A stretch of 64,000 bases of DNA from positions 609,378 through 673,377 of the forward strand of contig CAVXIV010000023.1 in assembly GCA_963761805.1 (NCBI GenBank). The letters run 5' to 3'. Position numbers and translations under genes: made by a program. A model generated the notes under the pieces. The model was not told the DNA's origin and ran no database searches. It worked only from the letters and a program-made list of their open reading frames with translations. Shown here one piece after another: positions 179 through 62,984 of this stretch; positions within the stretch are counted from its first letter, which is position 1; each line of letters opens with the position of its first letter. Source of the DNA: an uncultured Acidobacteriota bacterium (lineage in GTDB: Bacteria; Acidobacteriota; Thermoanaerobaculia; Multivoradales; UBA5704).

Positions 179-1753
179 ATGAACCGCCTCAGCTTTCCGA
201 TCCTCTTCCTGCTTCTCCCTGTCCTCCTTTGGGCCGCTGATCCGCCTTCGCCCGCTGACCTCGAGAAGCAGATCGCCCGGGGTCGCCAGATCTACATCGA
301 GGGCACCAGCCCCTCGGGCGGCGAGATCACCGCCGTGATGAGCGACGCGGGGGTCGAGGTGCCGGCGGCGGCGGTGCCGTGCGCGAGCTGCCATGGCCGC
401 GACGGCAAGGGGCGGCCCGAGGGCGGGGTCATGCCCACGGATCTCACGTGGACCAACCTCACCAAGCCCTACGGCGTCACCCACGCCAGCGGCCGCAAGC
501 ATCCGCCGTACGACGAGCGGTCGTTGAAGCGCGCCATCTCTCTCGGTCTCGATCCGGCGGGACAGAAACTGCACGTGGCCATGCCCCGGTTCCGCATGAG
601 CCTCCAGGACATGGCGGACCTCACGGCCTACATGAAGCGGCTCGGCACCGAGCGCGATCCCGGAGTCAGCGAGACCTCGCTACGGGTGGGCGTGATCCTG
701 CCGCCCGCCGGAAACCTGAGCGGGATGGGACTGGCGGTCCGCTCCGCGCTCACCGCGCGGTTCGAGGCGCTCAACAAGGAGGGCGGGATCTACGGCCGCC
801 GTGTCGAGCCCCGCTTCCTGGAGGCCCCCGCCGCGGCCGATCAGCGGCGGGCCTGGAGCGCCGACTTCCTCCAGCGCGAGGAGATCTTCGCCGGCGTGGC
901 CTCCTTCCTGGCCGGCGCGGACGCCGAGCTGGCCGCGCTGTTTCAGGAGAAGGAGGTCCCGCTGATCGGGCCGTTCACCCTCCACCCCCGCGAGGCGTTC
1001 CCGCTCAACCGCTACGTCTTCTATCTGCTGCCCGGGGTCGAGGCGCAGGGCCAGGCGCTGCTCCGTTTCGCCGCGGGTAAGTGGGAAGGCAAGCCGCAAG
1101 CCGCCGTCGTGGCTCCCGCCGGTCAGGAGCTGGACGGCGCCGTCGAGGCCCTCACCAAAGCCGCGACGGCCGCCGGATGGCCCGCGCCGCTCGTGCTCCG
1201 CCTCCAGGACGGCTCGGCCGCTCAGGACCTCCAGCGTCTGGCGGCGGCCAAGGCCGATCCCGTCTTTTTCCTGGGCTCGGGCGCCGAGGGAGCGGCCCTG
1301 CTCCAGGCGGCGGACCGCCTGGGCTGGCGTCCGCGCTTCCTCGCCACCGCCGCGGCGGCCGACGACTCCCTGTTCAGCGCTCCGGCGGCGTTCGATGGAA
1401 AGGTTTTTCTCGCTCTCCCCACCTCGCCCGCCGGCCCCTCGCCCGAAGCGGCGGCCTCCTACCGCGCCCTGGCCGCCGAGGCGAAGCTGCCCGCGGACAA
1501 CGTCTCGGCGCAGCTCTCGGCCCTGGCCGCCGCCGAGGTGCTGATCGAAGCCCTGGAAAAGGCCGGGCGGGAGCTCAGCCGCGAGAAGCTGGTGGACGAG
1601 CTCGAAAAGCTCCGCCAGTTCCAGAGCGGCTTCGCCCCGCCCGTCACCTACAACGTCAGCCGCCGCCTGGGCGCCCGCGGCGCCTACGTGATGCGGCTCG
1701 ACCTCGCCGGCAAGAGGCTGGTCTCCGAAGGCGGCTGGGTGGAAGTGGAGTAG
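179..1753 (+). CDS. secreted c-type cytochrome domain fused to a periplasmic solute-binding (Leu/Ile/Val-binding-like) domain
   Basis: N-terminal signal peptide (LFLLLPVLLWA). Single CxxCH heme motif (CASCHGRDGKG). The remaining ~380 aa resemble a type I periplasmic binding protein (LRVGVILPPAG..GIYGRRVE..). Clean 524-aa ORF. Confidence 0.7.
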   Translation: MNRLSFPILFLLLPVLLWAADPPSPADLEKQIARGRQIYIEGTSPSGGEITAVMSDAGVEVPAAAVPCASCHGRDGKGRPEGGVMPTDLTWTNLTKPYGVTHASGRKHPPYDERSLKRAISLGLDPAGQKLHVAMPRFRMSLQDMADLTAYMKRLGTERDPGVSETSLRVGVILPPAGNLSGMGLAVRSALTARFEALNKEGGIYGRRVEPRFLEAPAAADQRRAWSADFLQREEIFAGVASFLAGADAELAALFQEKEVPLIGPFTLHPREAFPLNRYVFYLLPGVEAQGQALLRFAAGKWEGKPQAAVVAPAGQELDGAVEALTKAATAAGWPAPLVLRLQDGSAAQDLQRLAAAKADPVFFLGSGAEGAALLQAADRLGWRPRFLATAAAADDSLFSAPAAFDGKVFLALPTSPAGPSPEAAASYRALAAEAKLPADNVSAQLSALAAAEVLIEALEKAGRELSREKLVDELEKLRQFQSGFAPPVTYNVSRRLGARGAYVMRLDLAGKRLVSEGGWVEVE

Positions 1754-1902
1754 CCGGCGTCCTCGACGGCAAAGAAGAGGAAAACGAAGGTTCCAGGATC
1801 TGTAATGCCCGTGTAAGGTTCCCCTCTTTAACCTCCCCGACAAGCAGTACCGGATCAAACCCCGGGAGCCCCGTGCTCCCGCAACAGCACGAGGGAGGTT
1901 CA

Positions 1903-4900
1903 ATGGACACGCGAGTTGTCGTTCGCAGAGGTCTCCTGTCTCTGGCGGCATGCCTGATGTTGCTGGGCCTGCCGCCGTCCGCCGGCGCGGCCGGCGCCAC
2001 GCAGGCCGTCCCGAACGAAGGAACCACTGTAATCATCACTCCGGTCGACGACGTGCAGCCCGTGATCCCCGCGGGCTGCTCCAACTACGTCTGGGCGGAC
2101 GTGGTGGCGCTGGATCAGCCGTGGACGTGGAACCGGTTCGGCGCCATGGAGCCGCAGGGCATGATGTACGCCCTGCGCCGCGACGTGGTGCCCACCAGCG
2201 ACGCCGACGGCCTGCCCGATCCCGGGGTGACCTACACCCTGACGGCGGGCAACGTGAAGCTGCGCCGCGACAAGCGCCCGCGGCCGCTGGTGCTGCGCGT
2301 CAACGCCGGCAATTGCCTGCGCGTGCATTTCACCAACCTGCTGTCCAGTTCGGTTCCCCTCTCGGGCCCGCGCGACGAGCAGCCCCGGACCCGCGCCGCC
2401 TCGATCCATTTCGTCGGGCTGGAAGCGGTCACCTCGATCCGTGACATGGGATCGAACGTCGGCAACAACCCCGCCGGCGGCAACGGCATCGTACCCTCCG
2501 GCGGCAGCGTCGACTACTGGGTGTACGCGCCGCGCGAAGGCTCCTACGTCTTCTACAGCAACGGCGCCATGACCGGCGGCGAAGGGGACGCGGGCAGCAT
2601 CTCGGAGGGCCTCTTCGGCGCCGTCAACGTGGAGCCCGCCGGCTCCGTCTGGTACCGCAGCCAGGTGACGCGGGAAGACCTCAACCACGCCCGCGCCCCC
2701 GGTTTCGATCCGGCGGTGGACAGCTTCCCGGTGCTCAACTACGACGGCGCGGTCTACCCCGCCGGCCATCGCTACGCCGGGCTGCCGGTCCTCAAGATGC
2801 TCAAGGGCAACGAGATCGTCCACTCCGACCTGACGGCGATCATCGCCGGCCCGGCGTCGTCGAACTACCGGCTGGCCGGCGTCAGCAGCACCAACACCTA
2901 TCCCAACCGCAACCAGCCGTTCCGCGAGTTTTCGATCATCTTCCATGACGAGGTCGGGGCGGTGCAGGCGTTCCCCGAGTTCGAGACCGACGATCTGTTC
3001 CACACGTTGCAAAGCGTCCGCGACGCTTTCGCGATCAACTACGGCACCGGCGGCGCCGGCGCGGAAATCCTTGCCAACCGCCTCGGCGTGGGCCCGGCCC
3101 GCGACTGCGCGGAGTGCAAGTACGAGGAGTTCTTCCTGACCTCCTGGGCGCTCGGCGATCCCGCCATGGTGGTGGACAAGCCGGCCAACTTCCCCTGCTC
3201 GAAGTCGCAGATCGAAGCGGGCGACACGACCTGCTACTCCAAGGGTCCCAAGGCGACCATCGCCTACTACCCGGACGACCCGTCGAACGTCTACCACAGC
3301 TATCTCTCCGACCATGTGAAGTTCCGCAATACGCACGCGGGCAGCGACGACCATCACATCTTCCACCTGCACGCCCACCAGTGGCTGCACACGCCGAAGA
3401 GCGATTCGTCGTCCTACCGCGACAGCCAGGCCATCGGCCAGGGCCAGGGCTTCACCTACGAGATCGCCTACGACGGCAGCGGCAACCGCAACCTGACGGT
3501 GGGCGATTCGATCTTCCATTGCCATTTCTATCCGCACTTCGCGCAGGGCATGTGGAGCCTCTGGCGCGTGCACGACGTGCTGGAGCTGGGCACGCGCCTC
3601 GACGCCAACGGCCGCCCCGCCGGCGGCGCGCGCGCCCTGCCGGACAACGAAATCCTTGCCGGCACGCCCATCCCGGCGATCGTGCCGCTGCCGACTCTCG
3701 CGATGGCGCCGCTGCCCAGCCCGGTCTCGATCAACGCCGCGACCGGCCAGGTGCAGTTCCCCGGCGCGGTGACGACGAACCCCGGCTTCCCGTTCTTCGT
3801 CCCCGGCATCGCCGGCCGCCGGCCGCCCCACCCGCCCAAGGACTTCGCGATCAACCCGCTCAACGGCCAGGCGATCGACGGCGGCCTGCCGCGCCACGTC
3901 GTGGTCAGCGGCACGGCGGTGAGCCACCAGACCCGCTTCAACATGGACAAGGAGATCAAGACGGCCAAGGTGCAGTGGCTGAACGAGGCGGGCGAGCCGG
4001 TGGAGCAGGTGGCGATGAATTTCCACGCCACGGCCAACCACCCGACCTTCACCCCGAGCGGCGCGCCCGCCACCTTCAAGGCCAACGGCTTCCCGGCCCA
4101 GCAGGGCGCCCCGTTCGCCGATCCCTGCGTGGACGACAACGGCAATCCGATCACCCAGATGCGCTACTACAAGGCGGCGGACATCCAGCTCGACGTGAAG
4201 TTCAACAAGGCCGGCTGGCACTTCCCGCAGCAGCGCATGATCGCCCTGTGGAACGACGTCGGCGGCTTCATGACGGGCGCCAAGGCGCCGGAGCCGTTCT
4301 TCTTCCGCGCCAACAGCGGCGAATGCATCGAGTTCTGGCATACCAACCTGGTGCCCAACAAATACGTCGCCGACGACTTCCAGGTGCGTACGCCCACCGA
4401 CATCCTGGGCCAGCACATCCACCTGGTGAAGTTCGACGTCATGGCCTCGGACGGCGGCGGCAACGGCTGGAACTACGAGGACGGCTCCTTCGGCGGTGAG
4501 GAGGTGCAGGAGCGCATCTGCGCCATCCGCCAGGCCCAGCCCGGCCGTTGCGGCGAGCCGTACACCGATCACTGCACCTTCGCCGGCACCGCGACTACGA
4601 GCTGCCCGGTGCCGCAAGCCCATCCGGCCTTCACCCAGAACGAGGACCAGGACTGCAACGGCGTCAACGACTACCTGGGCGCACAGACCACCGTACAGCG
4701 CTGGTGGGCCGATCCGATCACCAATCTCGACCAGAGCCAGCGCACCCTGCGCACGGTGTTCACGCACGACCACTTCGGTCCGTCCACCCACCAGCAGTCC
4801 GGTCTCTACGCCGGCCTGATCGTCGAGCCCCCGGGCACCAACTGGTACCACAACGAGACCGGCACGCCGCTCAGCACCAACGGCGGCACCGGCCTCAATC

Positions 4901-7317
4901 AGGACGGTGGCCCGACGAGCTGGCAGGCCGTGGTCAAGGGCACGAGCCGCAAAGACAATTACCGCGAGTTCATGATCGAGTTCGGCGACTTCCAGCCGAT
5001 GTACGAGCCGGGCGGCCCGGCCTGCCCGGACAAGGACCCGGAGGTCGGCTGGATCGACGTCGCCCGCGCCATCAACCCGCCGGCCAAGGAAGAAGTAGGC
5101 CTGCCGGACCTGTACGCCAAGTCCAAGGAGTGCCCGGTGCCCGACGGCAGCACGGCCTCCCTGCTGGCGCCGTGCCCGGAGGCCGTCTCCGCCGCCGACA
5201 TCGGCATGATGGTGGTCAACTACCGCAACGAGCCCCTGGGGCTGCGCGTCCTCGTGCCCGGCGCCAACACGCAGGCGCCCGGCAAGGCGGGAGACCTCTC
5301 CTTCGCCTACCAGTCGCGCACCGACCGCGCCGACGCCGCGTTCAACGTCCAGCCGGGCTTCTATCCGCCTCTGACGTTCGGATTGTTCAAGGGCGATCCC
5401 TACACGCCGCTGCTGCGCGCGATGGAGGGCGACCAGGTCAAGATCCGCACGCTCGTCGGAGCGCACGAGGAGCCGCACAACATGACCGTGCACGGGCTCA
5501 AGTGGCTCTTCGAGCCCGACGACGTCAACTCGGGATACCGGAACTCCCAGGTGACGGGCATCTCCGAGTGGTACGACCTGGAGATCCCGCGCGTTCCCAG
5601 CCTGGAGGACGGCCGCTTCGCGGACTTCCTCTACAAGCCGAGCGCCTCGGTGGAGTCGCAGTGGACCGGCGCCTGGGGCCTCCTGCGCATCTACCGCAAC
5701 GACGACAACTCCACGATCACGAACGGCAAGTTCGGGCTGACGCCGCTGACGGACTACAACCCCACCGGCAAGTCGCCGACGCCCGACACGGCCTTCGACG
5801 AGATCACCGTGAGCCAGGCCAAGACGGAAGGCGTCGCCGGCTCGGACGTCGATTCCACCTCGGCCGTGGCGACCAACACCAGCGTCTCCTCGACCAGCAG
5901 CCCCTCGACTCTCGGCGAATCCGCCGTGGGCACCTCGCTGGTCAGTCCGACGGCGGACTCCCCGACGCCGGTGGCGACGCGCCCGGCCACCAGCACCATC
6001 CGCGTCCTCTGCCCGTACGGCAGGACCTACAAGAACTACTTCATCGCCGCCGTGTCGGCGAAGGAGGTATTGCAGAACGATCCGATCGGCCTCGACGGCC
6101 TGATCTACAACGCGCGTCCCGATTCCGTGTCGGGGCCCAGCGGCTCCTTCGTGGGCCCGCTCTGGGATCCCACCGCCATCATGTTCGTCTACTACGGCGA
6201 CCTGACGTTCGTGGGCGGCCGTCCGCGGCTCAACCCGACCGTCCGCCGGGAGCCGCTGGTGATGCGCGCCAACGCGGGCGACTGCATGCGGGTGTCGCTG
6301 ATCAATCTGTTGCCCGGAAATTACACCGACACGCCGGGCTACAGCGGCGTCAACATGATCGTCGAAGGCTTCAACCAGAACGACGTCGCGCCCTCGATGG
6401 AAGTCAGCCTGCACCCGCAGCTCGTCCACTACGACGTGCAACGCAGCGACGGCTCCAACGTCGGCCTCAACCCCAGCCAGTTCGGCCGCCAGAGCGTGCT
6501 GCCCGGCGAGACCCGGACCTACTACTGGTATGCCGGCGACGTGACCGGCGCCACCGTGACCCCCATCGAGTTCGGGGCCACCGGCCTGACCTCGTCCGAT
6601 CCCATCAAGCACAGCAACAAGGGCCTGATGGGCACCCTGATCATCGAGCCGGCCACGTCGCAGTGGACCTACGACACCGACTCCAACGGACAGACCACCC
6701 GCGCGTCGGCCGTGATCAGCTCGACCAACAGCTCCTTCACCCCGTTCCACGAGTTCGCCTTCGTGGTGCAGGACGACGTCAACATGCAGTACGCCAACGG
6801 CACCGCGGTGCGCAACCTGGAGATCGACGACGATCCGGAGAACAGCGGCCAGAAGGCGGTCAACTACCGCGCCGAGCCGGTCTGGTTCCGCGCCGGCTGG
6901 ACGCCGGAGACGGAGCTCACCGACACCCGGATGTTCCCGCAGTTCGACCAGGTGCTCCACAACAACTGGGTGGGCGGCGATCCCGAGACGCCGGTCTTCT
7001 CCGCCCGCGCTACCGAGAGCATCCGCCTGCGCGTCGTGCATCCGTCGGGCCACACCCAGGCGCACTCCTTCGAGGTCTACGGCCACTCCTGGCTGGAGCG
7101 GCCCTACGTGACCGGCACCGGCTCGACCCGGCTCGGTACCAACACCACCTCGGAGTGGATCGGCACCCGCAGCCTGGGACCGACCGACCACTTCGACGCG
7201 ATCATCCCGGACGGCCCGGGCGGCGTCTTCGACGTCACCGGCGATTACCTGTACCGCTCCTACGGCGGCCCGCGGATGGACGCCGGCATCTGGGGTCTGC
7301 TCAGGATCCTGCCGTAA
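1903..7317 (+). CDS. giant secreted multicopper oxidase (~1804 aa, multiple cupredoxin domains; MofA/MnxG-like size class)
   Basis: ATG at 1903 follows a gagggagg RBS and opens a signal peptide ([19 protein letters not shown]). Copper-ligand motifs: [11 protein letters not shown] (~3347), [13 protein letters not shown] (~3516), HIHLVKFDV (~4414), [17 protein letters not shown] (~4759), [11 protein letters not shown] (~5464), [18 protein letters not shown] (~7039). Ser/Thr-rich linker at ~5800-6000. No frame disruption in 5.4 kb. Confidence 0.9.
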
Positions 7318-7361: not shown

Positions 7362-10300
7362 CTACTGAGTTCTCACAGGCGGCGCCGGGCGGGTTGGCAT
7401 CCGCTTCGGCTCCGCCTGAATCTTTTTCATCACCTCGGCCACGCCCCGCTCGAGCTGCGGATCGCGCCCCGCGAGGATCGACTTCGGATCGTTCTCCACC
7501 ACGATGTCGGGATCGACGCCGTGGCCTTCGATGATCCATTCGCCCTGCGAGCGAGACGGAGCCGGCTTCGGGCACGAAGATCTGGCCGCCGTCGATCAGC
7601 GGGCCGCGGCCGGAGATGCCCACGACGCCGCCCCAGGTGCGGGTGCCGATCAGCGGCCCCATGCCCTTCTCGCGGAACATGTAGGGGAAGATGTCGCCGT
7701 CCGAGCCGGAGCCCTCGTTGATCAGGCAGGCCATGTGGCCGTTGAAGACCACCTGCGGGATAGGGTGTGGGATCGTCGCTCGCGCTGCCGTAGTCCACCG
7801 CCAGCGGCTTGCGGCCCAGCCGCTCCAGCAGCGTCTGCGAGATGAAGCCGCCGCCGTTGTCGCGCACGTCGACGATCAGGCCCTCCTTGCGGACCTGGCC
7901 GAAGTACTGCTTGATGAACTCCCGCATGCCGTCCGCGCCCATGTCGGGAATGTGGATGTAGCCGATCCTGCCGTCGCTCAGCTTGTCGACGCGCTCGCGG
8001 TTCTGCGTGATCCAATCGAGATAGATCAGGTTCGTCTCGGTGTCGATGGGCCGGAACGTGATCTCCCGCGATCCTTCCATCGTGGGCCTGGAATTCACGG
8101 TGAGGCGCACGGGCCGGCCCGCCTTGTGGCGGAGCAGGCGGTAGGGGTTGTCGTTGCGCTTCGAGATCGATGCCGTCGATCGCCAGGACGTAATCCCCTT
8201 CCTTGACGTTCACGCCCACCTCGGTCAGCGGCGAGCGGTAGGTGTCCTCCTCGTTCTGGCCGTGGAAGATCCTGGCGATCTTGTAGCGGCCGGCCTTCTC
8301 GTCGAGCTCGAAGCGGGCGCCGGGCAGGGCCACGCGCGGCCGGGCTCGGGGGCTGAAGTCGCCGCCTTCGACGTAGGCGTGAGAGATGTTGAGCTCGGCG
8401 ATCATCTCACCGATCACGTAGTTCAGATCCGAGCGGTGGCCCACGTGGGCGACCCAGGGCTCGTACTGCTTGCGCAGGGCTTCCCAGTCATAGCCATGCA
8501 TGTTCTTGACGTAGAAGAAGTCGCGGAACCGCCGCCAGGACTCGTGGAAGACTTCGGCCCACTCCTCCGCGGGCACGCGGTCCACCACCAGGCCGCCGGT
8601 GTCGATGGTCTTCTTGGAGTCCTTGCCGCCCGCGTTGGCGTCATAGACGTTGAACTGTCCGCTGCTGGCGCACCAGCACCTTCTCGCCGTTGGCGGAGAG
8701 GGAGTAGCCGTTCACGCCCTCGGTGAGGGTCGTGGCTTTGCGGTCCTTGAAGGTGAAGATCTGGAGGGCCGGTTGCGAGGCTGGCTCGCCGAAGCTGTTC
8801 GCCGGGAACTTGACGTAGATCAGGCGGCCGTCGGCCGCGTAGAGGCCGCCGTAGTTGTCGAACGGCACGGGGATGCGGACCACCCGGCTGGCCAGGCCGT
8901 CGAAGTCGATCTTGAGGGATTTGACGGGCGCTTCCTTTTTCTCGTCCTTCTTTTCGTCCCGTCCTTCTTTTCTTCGTCCTTCTCGTCCTTCTTCTCCTCC
9001 TCGACCGTCACCTTGTCTTCCTCGGGCGGGAAGGGGTTCTCGACGTCCTTGCGCAGGGCGAGGGCGAAGAGGCCGATCGTTGCGGTCCAGGGCCAAGTTG
9101 AAGTCGATGGCGTCGAACTGCGGCGCGTAGTCGCGGCCCGAGATGTAATAAAGGTATTTGCCCTTGGGGTCCCAGACGGGCTCGCGCTCGTTGAAGTCCT
9201 CGCCGGTGACGCGGCGCAGCTTGCCGTCCTCCGCGCTCCAGATCCAGATCGAGCGGAAGTTGTTGGGATCGGTCATGCTGAAAGCGAGGTAGGCGCCGCC
9301 GGGGGACCAGTGGTAGTCGCCGATCTCCTGGCGGCGGTCCTGGGCGACCTGGACGAGCTTCTTGTCGGCCACGGTGACCACGTAGAGGCGGCCGTCCTTG
9401 TCCGAAAAGGCGATCTTCTTGCTGTCGGGCGACCACTCGGGGCCGTAGCGCATGGCCTTGCCGCCCGTGGTGAGCTGCTCGGGCTTGCCCTGGCCCAGGG
9501 CATCGATCAGGTAGATCTCCTCCTCGCCGCGTCGCGTCGGAGATGAAAGCGATCTTCCTGCCGTCGGGCGACCATCGGGCCCCCCTGTCGTGCGCGCCGG
9601 AGGTGCGGGTGAGGTTGCGCGTCACGCCCTTTTCGATGGGGGCGTTGAACACGTCGCCGCGGGCCACGAACACGGCCCGCTCGCCCTTGGGAGAGAGGAC
9701 GGCGTCCTCGATGCGGTCGGCCACCGGGATCTGCGAGGGCCGGCTGTCGAGCAGGTCGCTGGGGACCTGGATCGAGAGGTGCCGCGAGGCTGCCCGAGCG
9801 GGTGTCGAAGACGTTCAGCTCGCCGTCCATCTCATAGACGATCTGGCCCGTCGCGTCGGCGCTCGGCCAGCGGACGTCCCAGTCCCTGCTCTGCGTGAGC
9901 TGGGTCGTCGGCGCCGGTCGCCACGTCGTAGGCGTAGAGGTTGAGGGTGCCGGTGCGGTCCGAAGTTGAAGTAGATCTTGCCGCCGATCCACATGGGATC
10001 GCGCTCGGTGCGCGGGGTGTTGGTGATGTTCTTCGCCTCGTGGGTGGCGAGGTCGAAGATCCACAGGTCCTGGGCCCAGCCGCCCTGGTAGCGCTTCCAG
10101 GTGCGGAAGTCGCGGGCGAAGGGGGTGTAGACGACCTTCTTGCCGTCCGGCGAGAGGTCGGCGCCGCCGCTGATCGGGCATGGGCAGCGGCTCGCCGAGG
10201 CCGCCGTCCACGGGCACGGTGTAGATGCGGCTGTCGGAGAGGTCCCAGCCGTCGCGCAGGGAGCGGAAGAAGACGGACTTGCCGTCGGCCGTCCAGCCGT

Positions 10301-10670
10301 AGACCTGGTTGTCGTAGCCCCACCGCGGGTTCAGGGGGCCGCGGGCGGGATACCAGGTGAGCTGCTTCGGGACGCCGCCGGCCGCCGGGATGACGTAGAC
10401 CTGCTCGTCGCCGTCGTACTGGCCGGTGAAGGCGATCCATTTGCCGTCCGGCGAGAACTGGGCGAACATCTCGAGCCCGGGATGGGCGGTCAGCCGGGTC
10501 GCCCCGCCGCCGTCGGCGGAGGCGGTCCACAGGTCGCCGGCGTAGGTGAAGACGACCTTGTCCTCGTGGATGTCCGGGAACCGGAGCAGCTTGGTCTGGG
10601 CGGAAGCCTCCCCGGCGGCGGCGGCGAGAGCCGCCGCGAGACAGAGAAGAGAGCGTCGGACGCGTTGCAT
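7362..10670 (-). pseudogene. tricorn protease homolog (beta-propeller/PDZ/S41 peptidase), reading frame broken at least 11 times
   Basis: Typical N-terminus: LLRFPDIHEDKVVFTYAGDLWTASADGGGATRLTAHPG..FSPDGKWIAFTGQYDGDEQVY. Recognisable tricorn sequence hops between all three minus frames near 10180, 9975, 9915, 9790, 9535, 9075, 8950, 8655, 8165, 7790 and 7545. The true C-terminus (..[30 protein letters not shown]) ends at 7362. Confidence 0.8.
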
Positions 10671-10804
10671 GGGAACCTCCCCTGAAAGGGTTCAGGCATG
10701 GCGAAGCCCCGCCGGAGCGCGGCGGGGGCAGGGTGTCTACGGAGGGGTGGGGGAGCGGGTTGCAGGCAAGGACAGGACGCTTTCCCGGACGCGAAGCGGC
10801 GAAA

Positions 10805-11124
10805 CTACGCGTCTACGCGTCCGACTACGCGCCAGAGCAAAAATCTATGCGCCGCAGATTTCATCTTTGCGCCTCAGGAAAAATCTACGCGTCTCAGATT
10901 TTGTCTACGCGTCTCAGCAAAGGACTACGCGCCAGAGAAAACGACTACGCGTCTCCGGATATCGCTTTGCGCCTCCGCAATCGTCTACGCGTCAGGGATT
11001 TCGACTATGCGTCTCGGATTTCATCTACGCGCCACGGCGAATGTCTACGCGCCTCGGAATTCGTCTATGCGTCTCCGCAAGCTCCTATGCGCCGCCGGAT
11101 TTCGCTACGCGTCAGGTCCGCTCA
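10805..11124. repeat. tandem array of 16 in-phase 20-bp units with a conserved CTAYGCG core
   Basis: Core ctacgcg / ctatgcg / ctttgcg occurs at 10805, 10825, 10845 ... 11105 with exact 20-bp spacing, plus one out-of-phase core at 10813. Unit consensus is roughly CTAYGCGYCNCNGNAWWTCNT. The stretch is AT-richer than its surroundings and non-coding, since 20 is not a multiple of 3. Confidence 0.85.
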
Positions 11125-11349
11125 ATCCGCGGGAAACCCCACCCGCCGGTCGCGCTTGGCCGTTCCCTCCAGCTCCTTGATCTTCTGGAGCAGGTCGTCG
11201 CGCTCTTCCGTCACTTCGACGCTCGCTCCCGAGAGGAGGAGGAGCAGGGAGCCGGCGGCGTTCACTCCACGCGCCGTGATCCCGAGGATGGACTCGCTGC
11301 GCAGCCAGACTTTGCTGTCGGGTATCTGGGAAACCTGAATCCAAGGCAT
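11122..11349 (-). CDS. small hypothetical protein (75 aa)
   Basis: ATG preceded by aaaggagagag RBS. Starts 16 nt downstream of the preceding gene's stop in the same operon. No recognisable motif. Confidence 0.5.
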   Translation of the reverse strand: MPWIQVSQIPDSKVWLRSESILGITARGVNAAGSLLLLLSGASVEVTEERDDLLQKIKELEGTAKRDRRVGFPAD

Positions 11350-35638: not shown

Positions 35639-36468
35639 CGCGGGCCGCGCGGAGCGCCGTTCCCGCCCCGCTGCCCGCGCGGGTTCGGAGAGGAATTCGG
35701 CCGTCCGTCCGGGCCCGGGATCTCGCCCTCCCCGCCCCCGGGCAGGTTGCCGCCGGGGACCTGGTTGACGAAGCGCATCGGCCGGCCGACCCAGCGGAGG
35801 GACATGTTCGTGACGGCGTTCGGGTCCGGGTTGCCGATGCTCGGGTTGCCCGGGATGCCCTGCCGCCCAGACGTGACGACATCCTCGGTGAACCGCCACT
35901 CGTCGTAGCGCTCGCGCCCGAACATGATCAGGATCGACTTCTTGGGGCTCTTGCTGTGGACGCCGACGATGGGGCCGACCTGGACGACATCCCCTTTGCG
36001 GGGACCGCCGAAGCCGGGCCGGCCGTCGCTTTCCCCGTCCTCCCCGCCGGGAGCGTTGGGATCGGGGGGAACGTTGGGATCCGGAGGCACGTTCGGGTCC
36101 GGGGGAACGTTCGGATCGCCCCCGGGCTGGCGTTGCAGGTTGGAGCGGGGGTCGTTCTGGAAGATCAGGCCCCATTTGCCGTCCTCGGTCATGGGGTCCT
36201 TCCAGAGCTGGCGGATGCAGCGCGGTTTGACCTCCAGGAGCTCCTCCAGCTTGTTGGGATAGCGCTGGTAGCGCTGGTGGAAGAGGCGGATGGCCTCCGC
36301 GTACTGGAGGCCGCGGAAGACCAGCTCCTCCTCCTTCTCCCGCCGGATGATCTGGGTCCACGAGGGGAGCGCGGCCGCGAGCAGGATGTTCATCACCGTG
36401 ATCGCCACCACCAGGATGACCAGGTTGTAGCCGGCCTCGGACCTTGCGGCGTGGGGCGAGGTCTTCAT
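35635..36468 (-). CDS. pseudopilin-like membrane-anchored protein with a DPNVPP x3 repeat
   Basis: N-terminal hydrophobic helix [23 protein letters not shown] resembles a prepilin-type helix without the canonical GFTLxE. An 18-bp coding tandem repeat at ~36052-36117 gives [24 protein letters not shown]. Confidence 0.6.
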
Positions 36469-58732: not shown

Positions 58733-61700
58733 GTGAACCGTCCTTCAGCCACCGTCGCCGTCCTCGCCGAGAAGCCCGCCGTCGCCCGGGACATCGCCCG
58801 TGTGCTCGGCGCCACCGAGAGGGGAGAGGGGTTTCTCCGCGGCAACGGCTACGTCGTGACCTGGGCCATCGGCCATCTGGTCACCCTGGCGCAGCCCCAT
58901 GAGATCAATCCGGACTGGCGGAAGTGGCGGCGGGACCTCCTGCCGATGCTCCCCCGCGATTGGCCCCTCGTGGTCTCCGAGGAGACCCGGGCGCAGTTCG
59001 AGGCCGTCCGCAAGGTGATCAACGCGCCGGAGGTGGAGCGGGTCGTCTGCGCCACGGACGCCGGCCGCGAGGGCGAGCTGATCTTCCGCTACATCTACGA
59101 GGCCGCCGGCTGCCGCAAGCCGGTCCAGCGGCTGTGGATCTCCTCCCTCACGGCCAAGGCCATCCAGGACGGCTTCCGCAAGCTGCGGGACGGCCGCGAT
59201 CTCGACCCGTTGGCGGACGCCGCCCGGGGCCGCAGCCGGGCCGACTGGCTGGTGGGGATGAACCTCTCGCGGGCCTACGCCCTGGACTTCAACGAGGACC
59301 TCTCCGTCGGGCGCGTGCAGACCCCCACCCTCGCCATGGTGGTGGAAAGGGAGCTGGCCATCCGCGCCTTCGTGCCGGAGGACTACCTGGAAGTGATCGC
59401 GACCTTCTCGCCCACGACTTCCTCCACGGGCGGCGGCCCCGGCTACAAGGGCACCTGGTTCCGCGGCGAGACGCCCAATCCCGAGGCCAAGCGGATCAAG
59501 GCCGAGCCCGGCAAGGAGGGGGAAGACCTCCAGGAGGCGGCGCGGATCGTCCAGCGGGCGAAAAACGGCCAGGCCGCCGTCGAGTCCATCCGCTCCGAGA
59601 CCAAGCGGATGGCGCCGCCGCTGCTCTACGACCTCACCGAGCTGCAGCGGCACGCCAACCGCCTCTACGGCTTCAGCGCCAAGAAGACCCTGGGGCTCGC
59701 GCAGACCCTTTACGAGCAGAAGAAGCTCATCAGCTACCCCCGCACGGACAGCCGCCACCTCTCCACCGACGTGGCCGCCACCCTGGGGGAGATCGTGCGG
59801 GCCGTCCAGGGCCCCTATCTCGACAAGCTCGCTCCCGGCACCGGCGAGCGGCCCTTGAGCCGGCGCTTCGTGGACGACTCCAAGGTCACGGACCACCACG
59901 CCATCCTCCCCACCCCCACCTCGCCGGAGGGGGCCGGCCTCTCGGAGGACGAGCGGAAGATCTACGACCTGATCTGCCGGCGGCTCCTCTCCGCCTGGCA
60001 CGACGACCACGTCTGGTCCGTCACCACGGTGATCACCGCCATCACCAACCCGCCCCGCTCCGGGGTCGGCGAGCCGTTCGTGGACCGCTACCACAGCACC
60101 GGCACGCTGGTGGAGCAGGTAGGGTGGAAGGTGCTGGACGTCGAGAAGAAGAAAATGGACGCCAAGGACACCAGGGACGGCAAGGACAACAAGGACGACG
60201 AGGGCGCCGCCTCTCCCGAGGAGAACCAGGACCTGCCGCCGGGCCTCGCCCAGGGGCAGCGGCAGGAGGTGCTGGACGCCAGGGCCGTGGCCAAGCAGAC
60301 CCGTCCTCCCAAGCGCTTCACCGAAGCCACCCTGCTGACCGCCATGGAGACGGCGGGCAAGACCCTGGACGACAAGGAGCTCTCCGAGGCCATGAAGGAA
60401 TCCGGCCTGGGCACCCCCGCCACCCGCGCCGAGATCATCGAGACGCTGCTCCGGCGGGAGTACATCGTCCGCCAGGGCAAGTCCCTGGAGGCCACGGACA
60501 AGGGAATCCGGCTGATCGAGGTGGTGCATCCCCACGTGAAGAGCCCGGCCATGACCGGCCAGTGGGAGGCGCAGCTCCAGCGGATCCAGCGGGGGCAGGG
60601 GGAGCTTGGGGAGTTCATGCGGGGGATCGAGGAGTACGTGGAGGGGTGGTGGGCGGGAACGGCTCGGCGGCCCCCCCGCCCGGGCCCTCACCCCCAGCCC
60701 CTCTCCCGACCCCTCCCTCCCTCCCTCACCGGGAGAGGGGAGCCCGATCCGCGGGTGGAGCCTAGTCGGAATGGTGGCGCGCCGCCGACCCGCCTCCCTG
60801 CCCCTCTCCCCCTGGGAGAGGGGTCTCAAACCAGACTAACTTCTCCCCCTCTCCCGGTGAGGGAGGGAGGGAGGGGTCGGGCCCATGCGGGATCAACCGG
60901 GCCGGGGGGTGAGGGCCCGGGCGGGGGGCCGGCCAACGGCGGCTCTCTGGAAACCCTCCTCCACGACGTCTTCCGCCTCCAATCCTTCCGTCCCTACCAG
61001 GAAGCCGTCTGCCGCGCCGTGGTCGAGGGCCGGGACGTCCTCCTGGTGATGCCCACCGGCGCCGGCAAGTCGCTCTGCTACCAGCTCCCGGGACTGGCCC
61101 GGGGGGGCACGACGCTGGTGGTCTCGCCGCTCATCGCTCTCATGGAAGACCAGGTCGCCAAGCTCCGGGAGCTGGGTCTGCGGGCGGAGCGCATCCACTC
61201 GGGGCGGGACCGGTCGGCGTCGCGGCAGGTCTGCATCGACTACCTGGCGGGGCGGCTCGACTACCTCTTCATCGCCCCCGAGCGCCTGGCCGTACCCGGG
61301 TTCCCGGAGATGCTCGCCAAGCGCAAGCCCGCGCTCATCGCGGTGGACGAGGCGCACTGCATCTCGCAATGGGGGCACGACTTCCGCCCGGACTACCGTC
61401 TGCTGGGCCAGCGCCTCCCCATGCTGCGGCCGGCGCCCGTCATCGGCCTGACCGCCACGGCGACGCCGCAGGTGCAGGACGACATCGCCGCCCAGCTCGG
61501 CTTCGCGCGGGAGGGGCGGTTCATCCACGGCTTCCGGCGCACCAACATCGCCGTCGAGGTGGTGGAGATGCTCCCCTCGGAGCGCCGGCAGACCGTGCGG
61601 CGGGTCCTGGCGGACCGGGAGCGGCGGCCGGCCATCGTCTACGCGCCCACCCGCAAGGAGGCGGACGCGCTGGGTGCGGAGCTGGGCGAGGATTTCCCCT

Positions 61701-62984
61701 CCGCCGCCTACCACGCCGGCATGCCCACCGCCGCCCGCGACAAGGTCCAGGCGGCCTTCCTCGCCGGCCGGCTGGAGGTGATCGTCGCCACCATCGCCTT
61801 CGGCATGGGGGTGGACAAGCCGGACATCCGCACCGTCATCCACACGGGCCTGCCGGGCAGCGTCGAGGGCTACTACCAGGAGATCGGCCGCGCCGGCCGC
61901 GACGGCCAGCTCTCGCGGGCCATCCTCCTCTACTCCTTCGCCGACCGCCGGAACCACGAGTTCTTCCACGGCCGCGACTACCCCGAGGTGAACGAGTTGG
62001 AGCGGATCTTCCGCACCCTGCGGCAGGAGTCCCAGGTCGACGGCCAGCTCCGCAAGCGCCTCGCCATGGACGAGGAGCTCTTCGAGCGCGCCCTGGAGAA
62101 GCTCTGGATCCACGGCGGCGCCCTGGTGGACGCGGACGGCAACGTCGCCCTGGGAGCGGACGGCTGGCAGCGGACCTACCTGGCGCAGCGGGACCACAAG
62201 CTGGAACAGCTCGACCGGATGATCCGCTACGCCGAGTCCCACGGCTGCCGCATGCTCCACCTGGTGCGGCACTTCGGCGACCAGGAGGACTCGGGCGCGC
62301 CCTGCGGCCTGTGCGACGTCTGCGTTCCCGAGGACTGCTCGCTGCGCCGTTTCCGTCCTCTGAACAACCTGGAACGGGACCTGGCGGGCCGCATCGTGAC
62401 CTCGCTCCAGTGGCGGGACGGCCAGTCCACCGGCCAGCTCTACCGTGAGGTCTGCCCCGAGGAGCTGTCGGACCGCAAGTCCTTCGAGCGCCTCCTGGGC
62501 GGCATGGTCGCGGGCGGGCCTGCTGCGGCTGGCGGAGGACGCCTTCGAGAAGGAAGGGCGGACCATCCGCTTCCAGCGCGCCAGCCTGACTCCCGAAGGA
62601 AACCGGGCGGACGAGGCGGCCCTGGACCGGGTGGAGATGGCCGAGGAGATGCCGAAGACCCGCAAGAAGCGGGACCGCAAGGAAAGAGCCGAGAGGCCTG
62701 GGAAGGGGAAGTCCCGGCGGCCGGTCCAGGAGTCCTTCGTGCCCGAGTCGGCCCCTGATCCGGCCTCCCCCAGACTGGTCTTCGCCCTCAAGGAGTGGCG
62801 CCGTCAGGAAGCCAATCGCCGGCACATCCCCGCCTTCCGCATCCTCACCGACCGCGCCCTGACCGCCCTCGCCGCCGCCCGCCCCCGCGACGAGACCGAC
62901 CTCCTCAACGTCCCCGGGATCGGCCCCTCGATCGTGCAGAAGTATGGCCGGGAGATCCTGGGGATCGTATCTACTACTGGCTGA
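58733..62984 (+). CDS. topB/recQ: single ORF encoding DNA topoisomerase III (type IA), then a repeat-derived linker, then RecQ helicase; one frameshift near 62512 before the HRDC region
   Basis: Topo IA part: Toprim VAVLAEKPAVARDIA, DAGREGELIFRY, catalytic Tyr context ISYPRTDSRHL. RecQ part from ~60940: FRPYQEAV, MPTGAGKSLCYQLP, DEAHCISQWGHDFRPDY, LTATAT, YHAGM, GMGVDKPD, QEIGRAGRDG, Cys cluster CRM..CGLCDVC. HRDC (FALKEWRRQEANRRHIPAFRILTDRAL) is in the frame of ORF 62445-62984. No stop codon lies between the two enzymes. Confidence 0.75.
60682..60918. repeat. GC-rich palindromic repeat element, composite copy (two inverted arms plus an inner hairpin) inside the topB-recQ ORF
   Basis: Left arm 60682-60741 (short variant). 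Inner palindrome cccctctccccctgggagagggg at ~60801-60823. Right arm 60836-60918 is the reverse complement of the long variant (ctaacttctccccctctcccggtgagggaggg..gggcccatgcgggatcaaccgggcc..gtgagggccc). Confidence 0.75.

What the first reader, a model, noticed from the sequence alone, without database searches (positions are those of the whole stretch)
10805..11124. Strictly phased array of 16 x 20-bp repeats with a conserved CTAYGCG core
Seen: the cores ctacgcg, ctatgcg or ctttgcg recur at exactly 20-bp spacing from 10805 to 11105, with no indel over 320 bp. The 13-nt inter-core segments have diverged strongly and keep only a loose YCNCNG..AWWTC pattern. Seven cores form the palindrome ACGCGT. 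The array is AT-richer than its surroundings. It starts right at the stop codon of the 75-aa gene (11122) and ends ~135 bp upstream of the start of the disrupted tricorn gene. Established: phased direct repeats of ~20 bp are typical of iterons and partition centromeres, where repeated sites bind oligomerising proteins. A 20-bp period, close to two helical turns, places all cores on nearly the same DNA face. Inference: preserved spacing with a diverged filler argues for selection on phasing, so a protein-binding scaffold (regulatory, centromere-like or origin-like) is more likely than a neutral minisatellite.
Basis: partly seen in the sequence, partly recalled or inferred. Interest (0 to 1): 0.65.

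Follow-up and report, generated by a model that had tools for sequence, protein, structure and literature searches.

The report
Mobile phased 20-bp repeat array
A real, strictly phased array of sixteen 20-bp repeats in a soil Thermoanaerobaculia chromosome is a recently acquired copy of a small dispersed repeat family whose 9-base core and spacing are kept by selection; it most likely docks many copies of one DNA-binding protein, and it is not a replication origin or plasmid centromere.

Summary
There are 16 head-to-tail 20-bp units at 10805-11124, with no indel and a conserved core.

The array is not part of the conserved locus. Relatives at 82-95% nucleotide identity have only about 50-130 bp between the 75-aa gene and the tricorn gene. 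One strain at 96% identity carries the array at the same site. So it is a presence/absence polymorphism, most simply a recent gain of an array that was already diverged.

A homologous array in another Thermoanaerobaculia genome (L035) sits in an unrelated context. It aligns with this one unit by unit: 15 units, 72% identity, no gaps. Between the two copies, the five invariant core positions match in 74 of 75 cells. The filler matches in 59%.

A second collinear pair (L124, L120) has the same core, (C/G)TAYGCGYC. L124 also has 16 units.

The window is ordinary chromosome with no rep or par genes. I found no RNA structure, promoter, terminator, coding signal or intrinsic curvature.

Best reading (about 0.4): a mobile intergenic module that works as a phased, iteron-like platform for a protein encoded elsewhere. 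The protein and the benefit are unknown. The main rival is a selfish minisatellite with a recombination-promoting core.

The parts
10805..11124 (+). The array: 16 head-to-tail 20-bp units. Unit consensus on the + strand is CTAYGCGYC-(T/A)(C/G)N-G followed by 7 A/T-rich variable bases. There is an extra core at 10813.
   Evidence: Collinear with L035:4676-4975.
10779..10804 (+). Degenerate terminal unit(s) at the end of the array nearest the tricorn gene (CTTTCCC...GGACGCG...). This stretch lies inside the inserted block and has no counterpart in the empty sites.
   Evidence: L035 has a similarly decayed CTTTGCG unit at 4634, 22 bp before its first full unit.
10718..11123 (.). The stretch replaced by 52 other bases in metagenome contigs about 95% identical to the window. 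Against L131 and L132 the insertion maps to about 10778/10789-11118.
   Evidence: joint 10717->11124 in X2 and X3. (alignment A1). (L133).
10671..10770 (-). The native tricorn upstream/leader region (GCAACCCGC ... CCGGCGGGGCTTCGCC ... TTTCAGGGGAGG ... ATG). It is conserved in relatives that lack the array. The array was inserted just upstream of it.
11122..11349 (-). The 75-aa gene whose stop codon abuts the array. It is a neighbour, not a component: it is conserved in relatives without the array.
7365..10670 (-). Tricorn-protease-like gene downstream of the array. It is broken into at least 7 frame segments and is probably a pseudogene. The large genes around it are intact.

Best explanation
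The array is one copy of a dispersed family of non-coding repeat modules in soil Thermoanaerobaculia (Acidobacteriota). Each module is about 320 bp, or about 16 units of 20 bp.

Shown: it entered this site as a ready-made block whose units had already diverged. It lies in the permissive gap between the stop codon of the 75-aa gene and the native leader of the tricorn gene. Across copies, the asymmetric 9-nt core (C/G)TAYGCGYC and the 20-bp register are held by purifying selection, while the 11-nt filler drifts.

Inferred mechanism: it acts as double-stranded DNA. Each unit would bind one copy (or one dimer) of a sequence-specific protein encoded elsewhere. The head-to-tail sites, about 1.9 helical turns apart, would let neighbouring proteins touch. 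About 16 of them would then assemble cooperatively into a shallow left-handed nucleoprotein filament, as Rep proteins do on iterons or ribbon-helix-helix proteins do on plasmid centromeres. The conserved A/T at position 15, one helical turn from the core centre, would be the minor-groove side of each site.

At this locus the array is not an origin, not a plasmid centromere, and probably not a regulator of the decayed tricorn gene. Whether the complex serves the host (insulation, silencing, titration of the protein) or only the element's own spread is unresolved.
For: The array is real and far beyond chance.

It was gained, not inherited. L133 (about 92% nt identity), L131 and L132 (82-88%) and X2/X3 contigs (about 95%) have 50-130 bp at this site. 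An X25 contig (96%) and an X1 contig carry the array at the same junctions.

Whole-array homology exists in an unrelated context. The window and L035 arrays share 15 collinear units, 14.4 of 20 matches per unit against 13.4 +/- 0.3 after permuting unit order, p = 0.0065. The alignment has no gaps. L035's neighbours are a C39-ABC exporter and a secreted peptide gene.

L124 and L120 form a second collinear pair (p = 0.02) with the same core. L124 also has 16 units.

Selection is visible. Core positions match in 74 of 75 cells, the filler in 59%, against 42% for non-orthologous unit pairs. There are 0 gaps per 84 substitutions, against 7 per 81 in the nearby leader, so about 7 were expected. In the X25 strain the two core changes fall only on the degenerate Y positions 4 and 8.

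Evidence favouring DNA over RNA. Predicted folding is no better than shuffles on either strand, z = 0.49 and -0.04. There is no promoter or terminator and no Rfam match. Spacing is strict. In a related Holophagales array (L045), blocks of units switch orientation while keeping 20-21-bp spacing. Position 15 is A/T in all four arrays.
Against: No binding protein has been identified, and no conserved gene travels with the arrays.

The close family has only four members (window, L035, L124, L120). L120 is cut at a contig end.

The core strand is antisense to the adjacent gene in about 9 of 11 arrays of the wider class (using my own GC3-based gene calls). That bias could instead point to an RNA-level or replication-strand effect.

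The array is dispensable in close relatives and sits next to a pseudogene, which fits a selfish or neutral element as well as a functional one.

Conservation of the core could also reflect what the element needs to be copied, not binding of a host regulator.

Relatives of the L035 locus carry, at the same spot, either nothing (L136) or a different ~20-bp repeat (L137-139). The lineage may therefore simply be prone to making such arrays.
Confidence: 0.4

Rival explanations
1. Selfish or neutral minisatellite family with a recombination-promoting core. The shared core promotes in-register exchange or conversion between units and seeds new arrays at new sites, as proposed for hypervariable minisatellites that share a core. 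No dedicated binding protein or host function is needed. Phase is kept because exchanges are anchored on the cores.
For: Presence/absence polymorphism among near-conspecific strains. Insertion into permissive intergenic gaps and recombination hot spots (L129, L130 and L134 carry other insertions at the same site). Many other ~20-bp arrays in the same lineage, with similar or different units. In the X25 strain, 5 of the 6 array differences fall within one unit. The result looks like a chimera of units 5 and 13, which suggests in-register conversion.
Against: Conversion tracts would homogenise filler and core alike. They do not explain 74/75 against 59% identity between collinear units. Unit number and order stayed fixed (15 collinear units) through about 28% divergence, which is unlike a hypervariable satellite. 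Units are only about 60% alike, too diverged for efficient slippage.
Confidence: 0.25
2. RNA-level element. The array is transcribed with the upstream operon as a 3' UTR, or into the downstream 5' UTR. Its 16 GRCGCRUAG motifs would bind or titrate an RNA-binding protein or a small RNA, in the manner of the CsrB/RsmZ sponge RNAs.
For: It starts within about 0-10 nt of the upstream gene's stop codon here and in L035, L015, L019 and L125. The core strand is antisense to the flanking genes in about 9 of 11 arrays. The degenerate positions are Y (C/U) on the + strand, which would tolerate pairing with G.
Against: No promoter or terminator of its own. No structure beyond shuffles on either strand. 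No Rfam hit. Strict 20-nt spacing is not a feature of known sponge RNAs. L120 and L082 have the opposite orientation, and L045 mixes orientations within one array. No RNA runs were available to test transcription.
Confidence: 0.12
3. Cis-regulatory operator array for a neighbouring gene. Examples: an upstream activating or silencing region for the tricorn gene here, or for the secreted-peptide gene in L035, bound by an HTH-TPR regulator of the kind encoded beside the L035 array.
For: In the window and in L035 the array lies 135-170 bp upstream of a gene for a secreted protein, just beyond its conserved leader. An HTH-TPR plus Cys-peptide module homologous to the L035 one (46% identity) occupies the very same 75-aa/tricorn gap in L134.
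Against: The tricorn gene here is frameshifted at least 6 times. Orthologous tricorn and peptide genes in relatives do without the array. No HTH-TPR homologue is present in the 64-kb window. XRE-type HTH proteins normally bind palindromes, not 16 direct repeats.
Confidence: 0.1
4. Iteron-type replication origin or partition centromere of a plasmid, an integrated element or the chromosome.
For: Unit length (20 bp), head-to-tail arrangement and copy number resemble iterons and parC-type centromeres. Tandem-repeat centromeres bound cooperatively by RHH proteins are described in PMC3074162 and PMC5016525.
Against: No rep, parA, parM, parB or parR gene in 64 kb of housekeeping chromosome. No DnaA box in the window and no AT-rich unwinding element. 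No similarity to any plasmid or phage record. The insertion is only the array itself and is absent in sister strains.
Confidence: 0.03
5. Young slippage-generated satellite, or an assembly artefact.
For: Tandem repeats can arise by slippage. Short-read contigs often break in such arrays (L137-139 end inside one).
Against: Units are about 60% alike, not near-identical. Independent metagenome contigs reproduce both junctions. Homologous arrays exist in other assemblies.
Confidence: 0.03

Closest known systems
Plasmid and phage iterons (binding sites of Rep initiators such as RepA, pi and TrfA; P1 incA control array)
   Same: Asymmetric direct repeats of 17-22 bp in head-to-tail arrays. Each has a conserved recognition part and a looser remainder, with spacing near two helical turns. 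Arrays can act as titration or handcuffing sites as well as origins. (From general knowledge of these systems.)
   Different: Sixteen contiguous units is more than typical origins carry. There is no rep gene, DnaA box or AT-rich unwinding element. The setting is chromosomal and dispensable, and copies occur at unrelated loci.
Type II / type Ib partition centromeres (parC of R1 and pSK41, parH of TP228, the pCXC100 centromere)
   Same: Tandem repeats bound cooperatively by many copies of a small protein to give an extended or superhelical complex (PMC3074162, PMC5016525). From memory, the pSK41 repeats are also 20 bp long. A 20-bp step likewise predicts a shallow superhelix here.
   Different: No adjacent NTPase/centromere-binding-protein operon. 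Not on a plasmid. The core is not palindromic as RHH half-sites usually are. Found in several unrelated chromosomal contexts.
Hypervariable minisatellite families that share a core (eukaryotic, Jeffreys-type) and bacterial VNTRs
   Same: A dispersed family of tandem arrays at unrelated loci sharing a short core, with the rest of the unit differing. Presence and state are polymorphic between close strains.
   Different: Here unit number and order are stable (15 collinear units at 72% identity). Units within an array are strongly diverged. Core and spacing show purifying selection, not homogenisation.
REP/BIME elements
   Same: Short intergenic repeats clustered just downstream of stop codons, in lineage-specific families. 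The core contains the CTAC/GTAG tetranucleotide typical of REP heads. Related Holophagales arrays alternate orientation.
   Different: Units are not palindromic and predicted folding is not better than shuffles. They form long direct arrays at fixed 20-bp spacing. No RAYT-type transposase appears in the window.
CsrB/RsmZ-type protein-sponge RNAs
   Same: About 16-20 copies of a short motif within about 350 nt.
   Different: No own promoter or terminator, motifs not presented in hairpin loops, strictly regular spacing, and no Rfam match.

Membership tests
Iteron-type replication origin | Tandem direct repeats of about 17-22 bp | tested here: met
   16 x 20 bp, head to tail.
Iteron-type replication origin | Cognate rep initiator gene in cis or on the same replicon | tested here: not met
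   Pfam and NCBIfam scans of genes across the 64-kb window found no Rep family.
Iteron-type replication origin | Adjacent AT-rich unwinding element and DnaA boxes | tested here: not met
   No TTWTNCACA anywhere in the window. The lowest GC near the array is 52%, inside the array itself.
Iteron-type replication origin | Supports autonomous replication or exerts incompatibility | not testable with these tools
   Needs cloning of the array.
Plasmid partition centromere (parC/parS/sopC type) | Repeat array next to a parA/parM/tubZ plus centromere-binding-protein operon | tested here: not met
   The neighbours are an MBL-fold hydrolase, a DUF3137 protein, a 75-aa protein and a tricorn pseudogene. 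The same neighbours occur without the array in L131-L133.
Plasmid partition centromere (parC/parS/sopC type) | Located on a plasmid or other extrachromosomal replicon | tested here: not met
   Housekeeping chromosome context: ArgRS, LpxK, T2SS, Lhr. No blastn hit in 72,556 plasmids.
Minisatellite / VNTR generated by slippage | Near-identical units; copy number varies freely between strains | tested here: not met
   Units are about 60% alike. 15 units are collinear between two genomes with no unit gain or loss. The X25 strain keeps the register over 6.5 units. Only whole-array presence/absence was seen.
Minisatellite / VNTR generated by slippage | No position-specific constraint within the unit | tested here: not met
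   Core 74/75 identical against filler 98/165 between collinear units.
REP/BIME | Each unit is an imperfect palindrome able to form a hairpin | tested here: not met
   RNA folding z-scores of 0.49 and -0.04 for the two strands. Hairpins between adjacent units occur in only a few units and are not kept in L035 (my reading).
REP/BIME | Many dispersed copies per genome, with an associated RAYT transposase | tested here: inconclusive
   One array in 64 kb and no Y1 transposase in the window. The rest of the genome cannot be seen. Two arrays of the wider class occur in genome DASVAS01 and at least three in a Holophagales MAG.
CsrB/Rsm-like sponge RNA | Discrete transcription unit with its own promoter and terminator; motifs in hairpin loops | tested here: not met
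   Transcription itself could not be tested.
CRISPR array | Repeats of 23-50 bp separated by unique spacers of similar length, with cas genes or a leader | tested here: not met
   The whole period is 20 bp with a 7-11-nt variable part. No cas genes in the window.

The most novel reading that the evidence does not exclude
These arrays are a previously undescribed kind of bacterial mobile non-coding element, a 'phased-site array'. It would consist only of about 16 strictly spaced binding sites for one trans-acting protein. It would be copied between loci and genomes, and kept intact because that protein (a recombinase, segregation-like, silencing or defence factor conserved in Thermoanaerobaculia and Holophagae) must polymerise on it.
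Probability: 0.15. Interest if true: 0.8.

Novelty: new variant of a known kind. Interest (0 to 1): 0.5.

Why it matters
If the reading is right, uncultured soil Acidobacteriota carry a family of portable DNA modules with about 16 sites. Their only conserved content is a 9-nt recognition core at a fixed 20-bp step.

That would be a natural, chromosome-borne analogue of iteron or centromere nucleoprotein filaments, uncoupled from replication or partition genes. It would also give a handle for finding the protein that reads it.

The case is also a clean example of inferring selection on a non-coding repeat from two collinear copies. And it warns that iteron-like geometry alone does not mark an origin or a centromere.

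Tried and rejected
- **Coding repeat.** All three + frames are open across the window array. That is not true for L124, L120 or L035, and a 20-bp period cannot hold a codon phase. Rejected.
- **Structured RNA.** Predicted folding is no better than shuffles on either strand. No Rfam hit at gathering or at E <= 10.
- **Hairpins between adjacent units** (A-rich filler + CT ... AG + T-rich filler). Present for a few junctions only, and the changes in L035 are not compensatory (my reading). Rejected.
- **Intrinsic curvature from phased A/T tracts.** A wedge-model path gives end-to-end/contour of 0.87, the 12.6th percentile of 320-bp segments of the window, and not different from shuffles. L124 has no A/T tracts. 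Rejected.
- **Sigma-70 promoter or intrinsic terminator in the array.** None. I saw no sigma-54-like spacing by eye.
- **Plasmid or phage origin.** No blastn hits. The single viral-contig pattern hit (L128) is an unrelated perfect 20-mer repeat.
- **Target-site duplication or terminal inverted repeats** at the insertion, judged against the empty sites L131-L133. None recognisable.
- **The 75-aa neighbour as the binding protein.** It is conserved in relatives without the array.
- **Dispersed single-copy core (regulon or uptake-sequence type).** CTACGCG occurs 5 + 2 times outside the array, against about 7.5 per strand expected from base composition. Rejected.
- **Similarity of GCGUAGAU to the 16S rRNA 690 loop.** Noted from memory and judged a chance 7-8-mer match.
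- **RNA-seq evidence.** No RNA runs could be listed.
- **Literature.** Searches for such arrays in Thermoanaerobaculia or Acidobacteria found nothing.

Full report
**Observation.**
The window holds 16 head-to-tail 20-bp units from 10805 to 11124. Each starts with CTACGCG, CTATGCG or CTTTGCG, with no indel. An extra core sits at 10813. Fifteen of the 20 CTAYGCG on the + strand of the 64-kb window are in the array. Triplets of cores at 20-bp spacing occur 14 times, against 0 in shuffles. Self-identity is 0.60-0.63 at lags 20, 40 and 60, against 0.24 elsewhere. TRF finds periods of 20, 40 and 60. GC is 56% in the array and 69% in the window. Seven ACGCGT sites are present. The last unit overlaps the stop codon of the 75-aa gene. 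The first unit is 135 bp from the tricorn ATG.

**Anatomy.**
The column profile shows C1 T2 G5 C6 G7 C9 invariant, A3 in 14 of 16 units, and Y at positions 4 and 8. G13 is present in 15 of 16 units and A/T at position 15 in 13 of 16. The remaining filler is A/T-rich and variable. The unit is asymmetric and all units point the same way.
- Neither strand is predicted to fold better than shuffles as RNA, with z = 0.49 and -0.04.
- No Rfam family matches.
- No sigma-70-like promoter or intrinsic terminator lies in or beside the array.
- The + strand has no stop codon in any frame, but homologous arrays do. That property is incidental.
- A wedge-model path shows no unusual curvature.

**Context.**
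The flanking DUF3137 protein has hundreds of homologues labelled Thermoanaerobaculia. The closest DNA is in soil and rhizosphere metagenomes. The window is ordinary chromosome: an MnxG-like multicopper oxidase, ArgRS, LpxK, type II secretion/pilus genes, an Lhr helicase and ECF sigma factors. No replication or partition genes are present. There are no DnaA boxes and no AT-rich element.

All genes flanking the array are on the - strand, in the order MBL hydrolase, DUF3137, 75-aa gene, array, tricorn. The tricorn gene changes frame at least six times, while the large genes around it are intact. It is probably a pseudogene.

**The array is an insertion.**
Orthologous loci were fetched through DUF3137 homologues. 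They keep the MBL, DUF3137, 75-aa and tricorn genes but have only about 110-130 bp between the last two.
- L133 is about 92% identical in nucleotides; L131 and L132 are 82-88%.
- Alignment A1 places about 330-350 extra bases in the window. They start a few bases after the TGA and end just upstream of a conserved leader.
- Contigs from two soil metagenomes, about 95% identical to the window, join 10717 to 11124 with 52 other bases between.
- A 260-nt contig from run X25 (96% identity) spans the left junction and 6.5 units. A 151-nt contig from X1 spans the right junction.

So the array is polymorphic among near-conspecific strains. Absence in four progressively more distant lineages makes a recent gain the simplest history. 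The units are only about 60% alike, so they cannot have diverged in place since that gain. The array must have arrived already diverged.

The same gap is a hot spot. L130 carries repeats of about 105-bp period there. L129 carries a different gene. L134 carries a 5-kb island.

**Family.**
A pattern scan of one genome per species found L035 (Thermoanaerobaculia SMAG_U1959), with a 16-unit array of the same type.
- It aligns with the window array unit by unit over 15 units and 300 columns without a gap. There are 216 matches and 84 substitutions.
- The collinearity beats permutations of unit order, p = 0.0065.
- Its context is unrelated. It lies between the stop of a C39-peptidase ABC exporter and a 101-aa secreted Cys-rich peptide gene, beside an HTH-TPR regulator.
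- A metagenome scan found L124 (16 units) and L120 (at least 12 units, cut by the contig end). This is a second collinear pair (p = 0.02) with the same core, (C/G)TAYGCGYC, but GC-rich filler. Their contexts are again unrelated.

A wider class of 20-21-bp arrays occurs in other Thermoanaerobaculia and Holophagales genomes, with cores such as CTTTGCGMCAGRG. Several occur per genome. In L045, blocks of units alternate in orientation while keeping their spacing.

**Selection.**
Between the collinear window and L035 units, the five invariant core positions are identical in 74 of 75 cells. The eleven filler positions are identical in 98 of 165, against 69 of 165 for non-orthologous pairs. If the core drifted like the filler, about 30 differences would be expected. 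One is seen.

The arrays show 84 substitutions and no gap. The adjacent leader region shows 81 substitutions and 7 gap events among relatives, so about 7 gaps would be expected (Poisson p about 1e-3).

In the X25 strain the two changes inside a core hit only the degenerate Y positions. Five of the six array differences lie in one unit, which then resembles a chimera of units 5 and 13. This suggests in-register conversion.

**Mechanism (inferred).**
Selection on an asymmetric 9-nt core and on an exact 20-bp step is what a cooperative array of sites for a sequence-specific duplex-DNA-binding protein predicts. The lack of RNA structure or a transcription unit fits this reading. So does the orientation switching in related arrays.

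At 10.5 bp per turn, each step rotates the site by about -34 degrees. Bound proteins would trace a shallow left-handed helix of about 10.5 units per turn, as in iteron and ribbon-helix-helix centromere complexes (PMC3074162, PMC5016525).

Because the array is dispensable, mobile and next to a pseudogene, selection may act on the element's own propagation and not for the host. I could not separate these two possibilities. No candidate protein is encoded next to the arrays.

**Rivals.**
- A selfish minisatellite with a recombination-promoting core explains mobility and polymorphism. It does not explain the contrast between core and filler.
- An RNA-level 3'-UTR or sponge role is suggested by the position next to stop codons and by an orientation bias of about 9 to 2 (my own gene calls). 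It lacks every other hallmark, and no RNA data were available.
- An operator array for a neighbouring gene or for HTH-TPR regulators is suggested by the L035 and L134 link. It is weakened by orthologous genes that lack the array and by the dead tricorn gene.
- Origin or centromere function is contradicted by the context.

**Novelty and limits.**
I found no description of such arrays. I classify this as a new variant of a known kind: intergenic repeat families and iteron-like binding arrays.

The close family has four members. Gene calls in fetched loci are heuristic. No binding or expression data exist.

Noticed in passing
window 7365-10670 (- strand): The tricorn-protease-like gene downstream of the array is split over at least 7 frame segments. 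Neighbouring large genes (2078, 1134 and 1341 aa) are intact. Orthologues in relatives without the array are intact. It is probably a pseudogene specific to this lineage.
   Followed up: partly
L134:10914-16062, L035:2649-7270, L136:6001-7782: A recurrent module: an XRE-HTH + TPR regulator (about 490 aa) lies tail-to-tail with a gene for a ~100-aa secreted peptide carrying repeated GC.IDP.G.C motifs. In L035 it sits next to a C39-peptidase ABC exporter. It looks like a peptide-signalling or RiPP/bacteriocin locus. In L134 it occupies the same 75-aa/tricorn gap where the window has the array.
   Followed up: partly
L137:2925-3031, L138, L139 (contig ends): At the position where L035 has its CTAYGCG array, these relatives (77% identical regulator) have a different ~20-bp repeat (GGGCYGTC...ATCSATA). 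All three short-read contigs end inside it.
   Followed up: no
L130:4480-4880: Immediately after the 75-aa gene, at the same site as the window array, this relative has about three and a half copies of a ~105-bp GC-rich repeat, followed by unrelated genes.
   Followed up: no
window 58733-62758 (+ strand): A 1341-aa protein fuses an N-terminal type IA topoisomerase (Toprim + Topoisom_bac) to a C-terminal RecQ-type helicase (DEAD, Helicase_C, RecQ_Zn_bind). The domain order is the reverse of reverse gyrase.
   Followed up: no
window 1081-7317 (+ strand): A 2078-aa MnxG-like multicopper oxidase (NCBIfam NF041487, 1344 bits, below the equivalog cut-off). This is a possible manganese oxidase.
   Followed up: no
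window 10845-10864, compared with the X25 contig: In a 96%-identical strain, five substitutions cluster in unit 3 and turn it into CTACGCGTCTCAGAATTCGT. This resembles unit 5 (5' part) joined to unit 13 (3' part), an apparent in-register conversion within the array.
   Followed up: partly
L003:1370-1750, L023 (reverse strand 2530-2860), L001:1346-1650, L045:3548-3890: Other Thermoanaerobaculia and Holophagales loci hold arrays of 300-380 bp made of 20-21-bp units with related cores (CTTCGCGNCAGA, GACTYTGCGYCAGAG, CTTTGCGMC). L045 has blocks in alternating orientation. At least three such loci come from one Holophagales MAG.
   Followed up: partly
window 36049-36117 (- strand gene): An 18-bp tandem repeat (GGGAACGTTCGGATCCGG, 3.8 copies) lies inside coding sequence. 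It appears to encode a Pro/Asn/Val-rich peptide repeat in a gene of the type II secretion/pilus cluster. It is unrelated to the finding.
   Followed up: no
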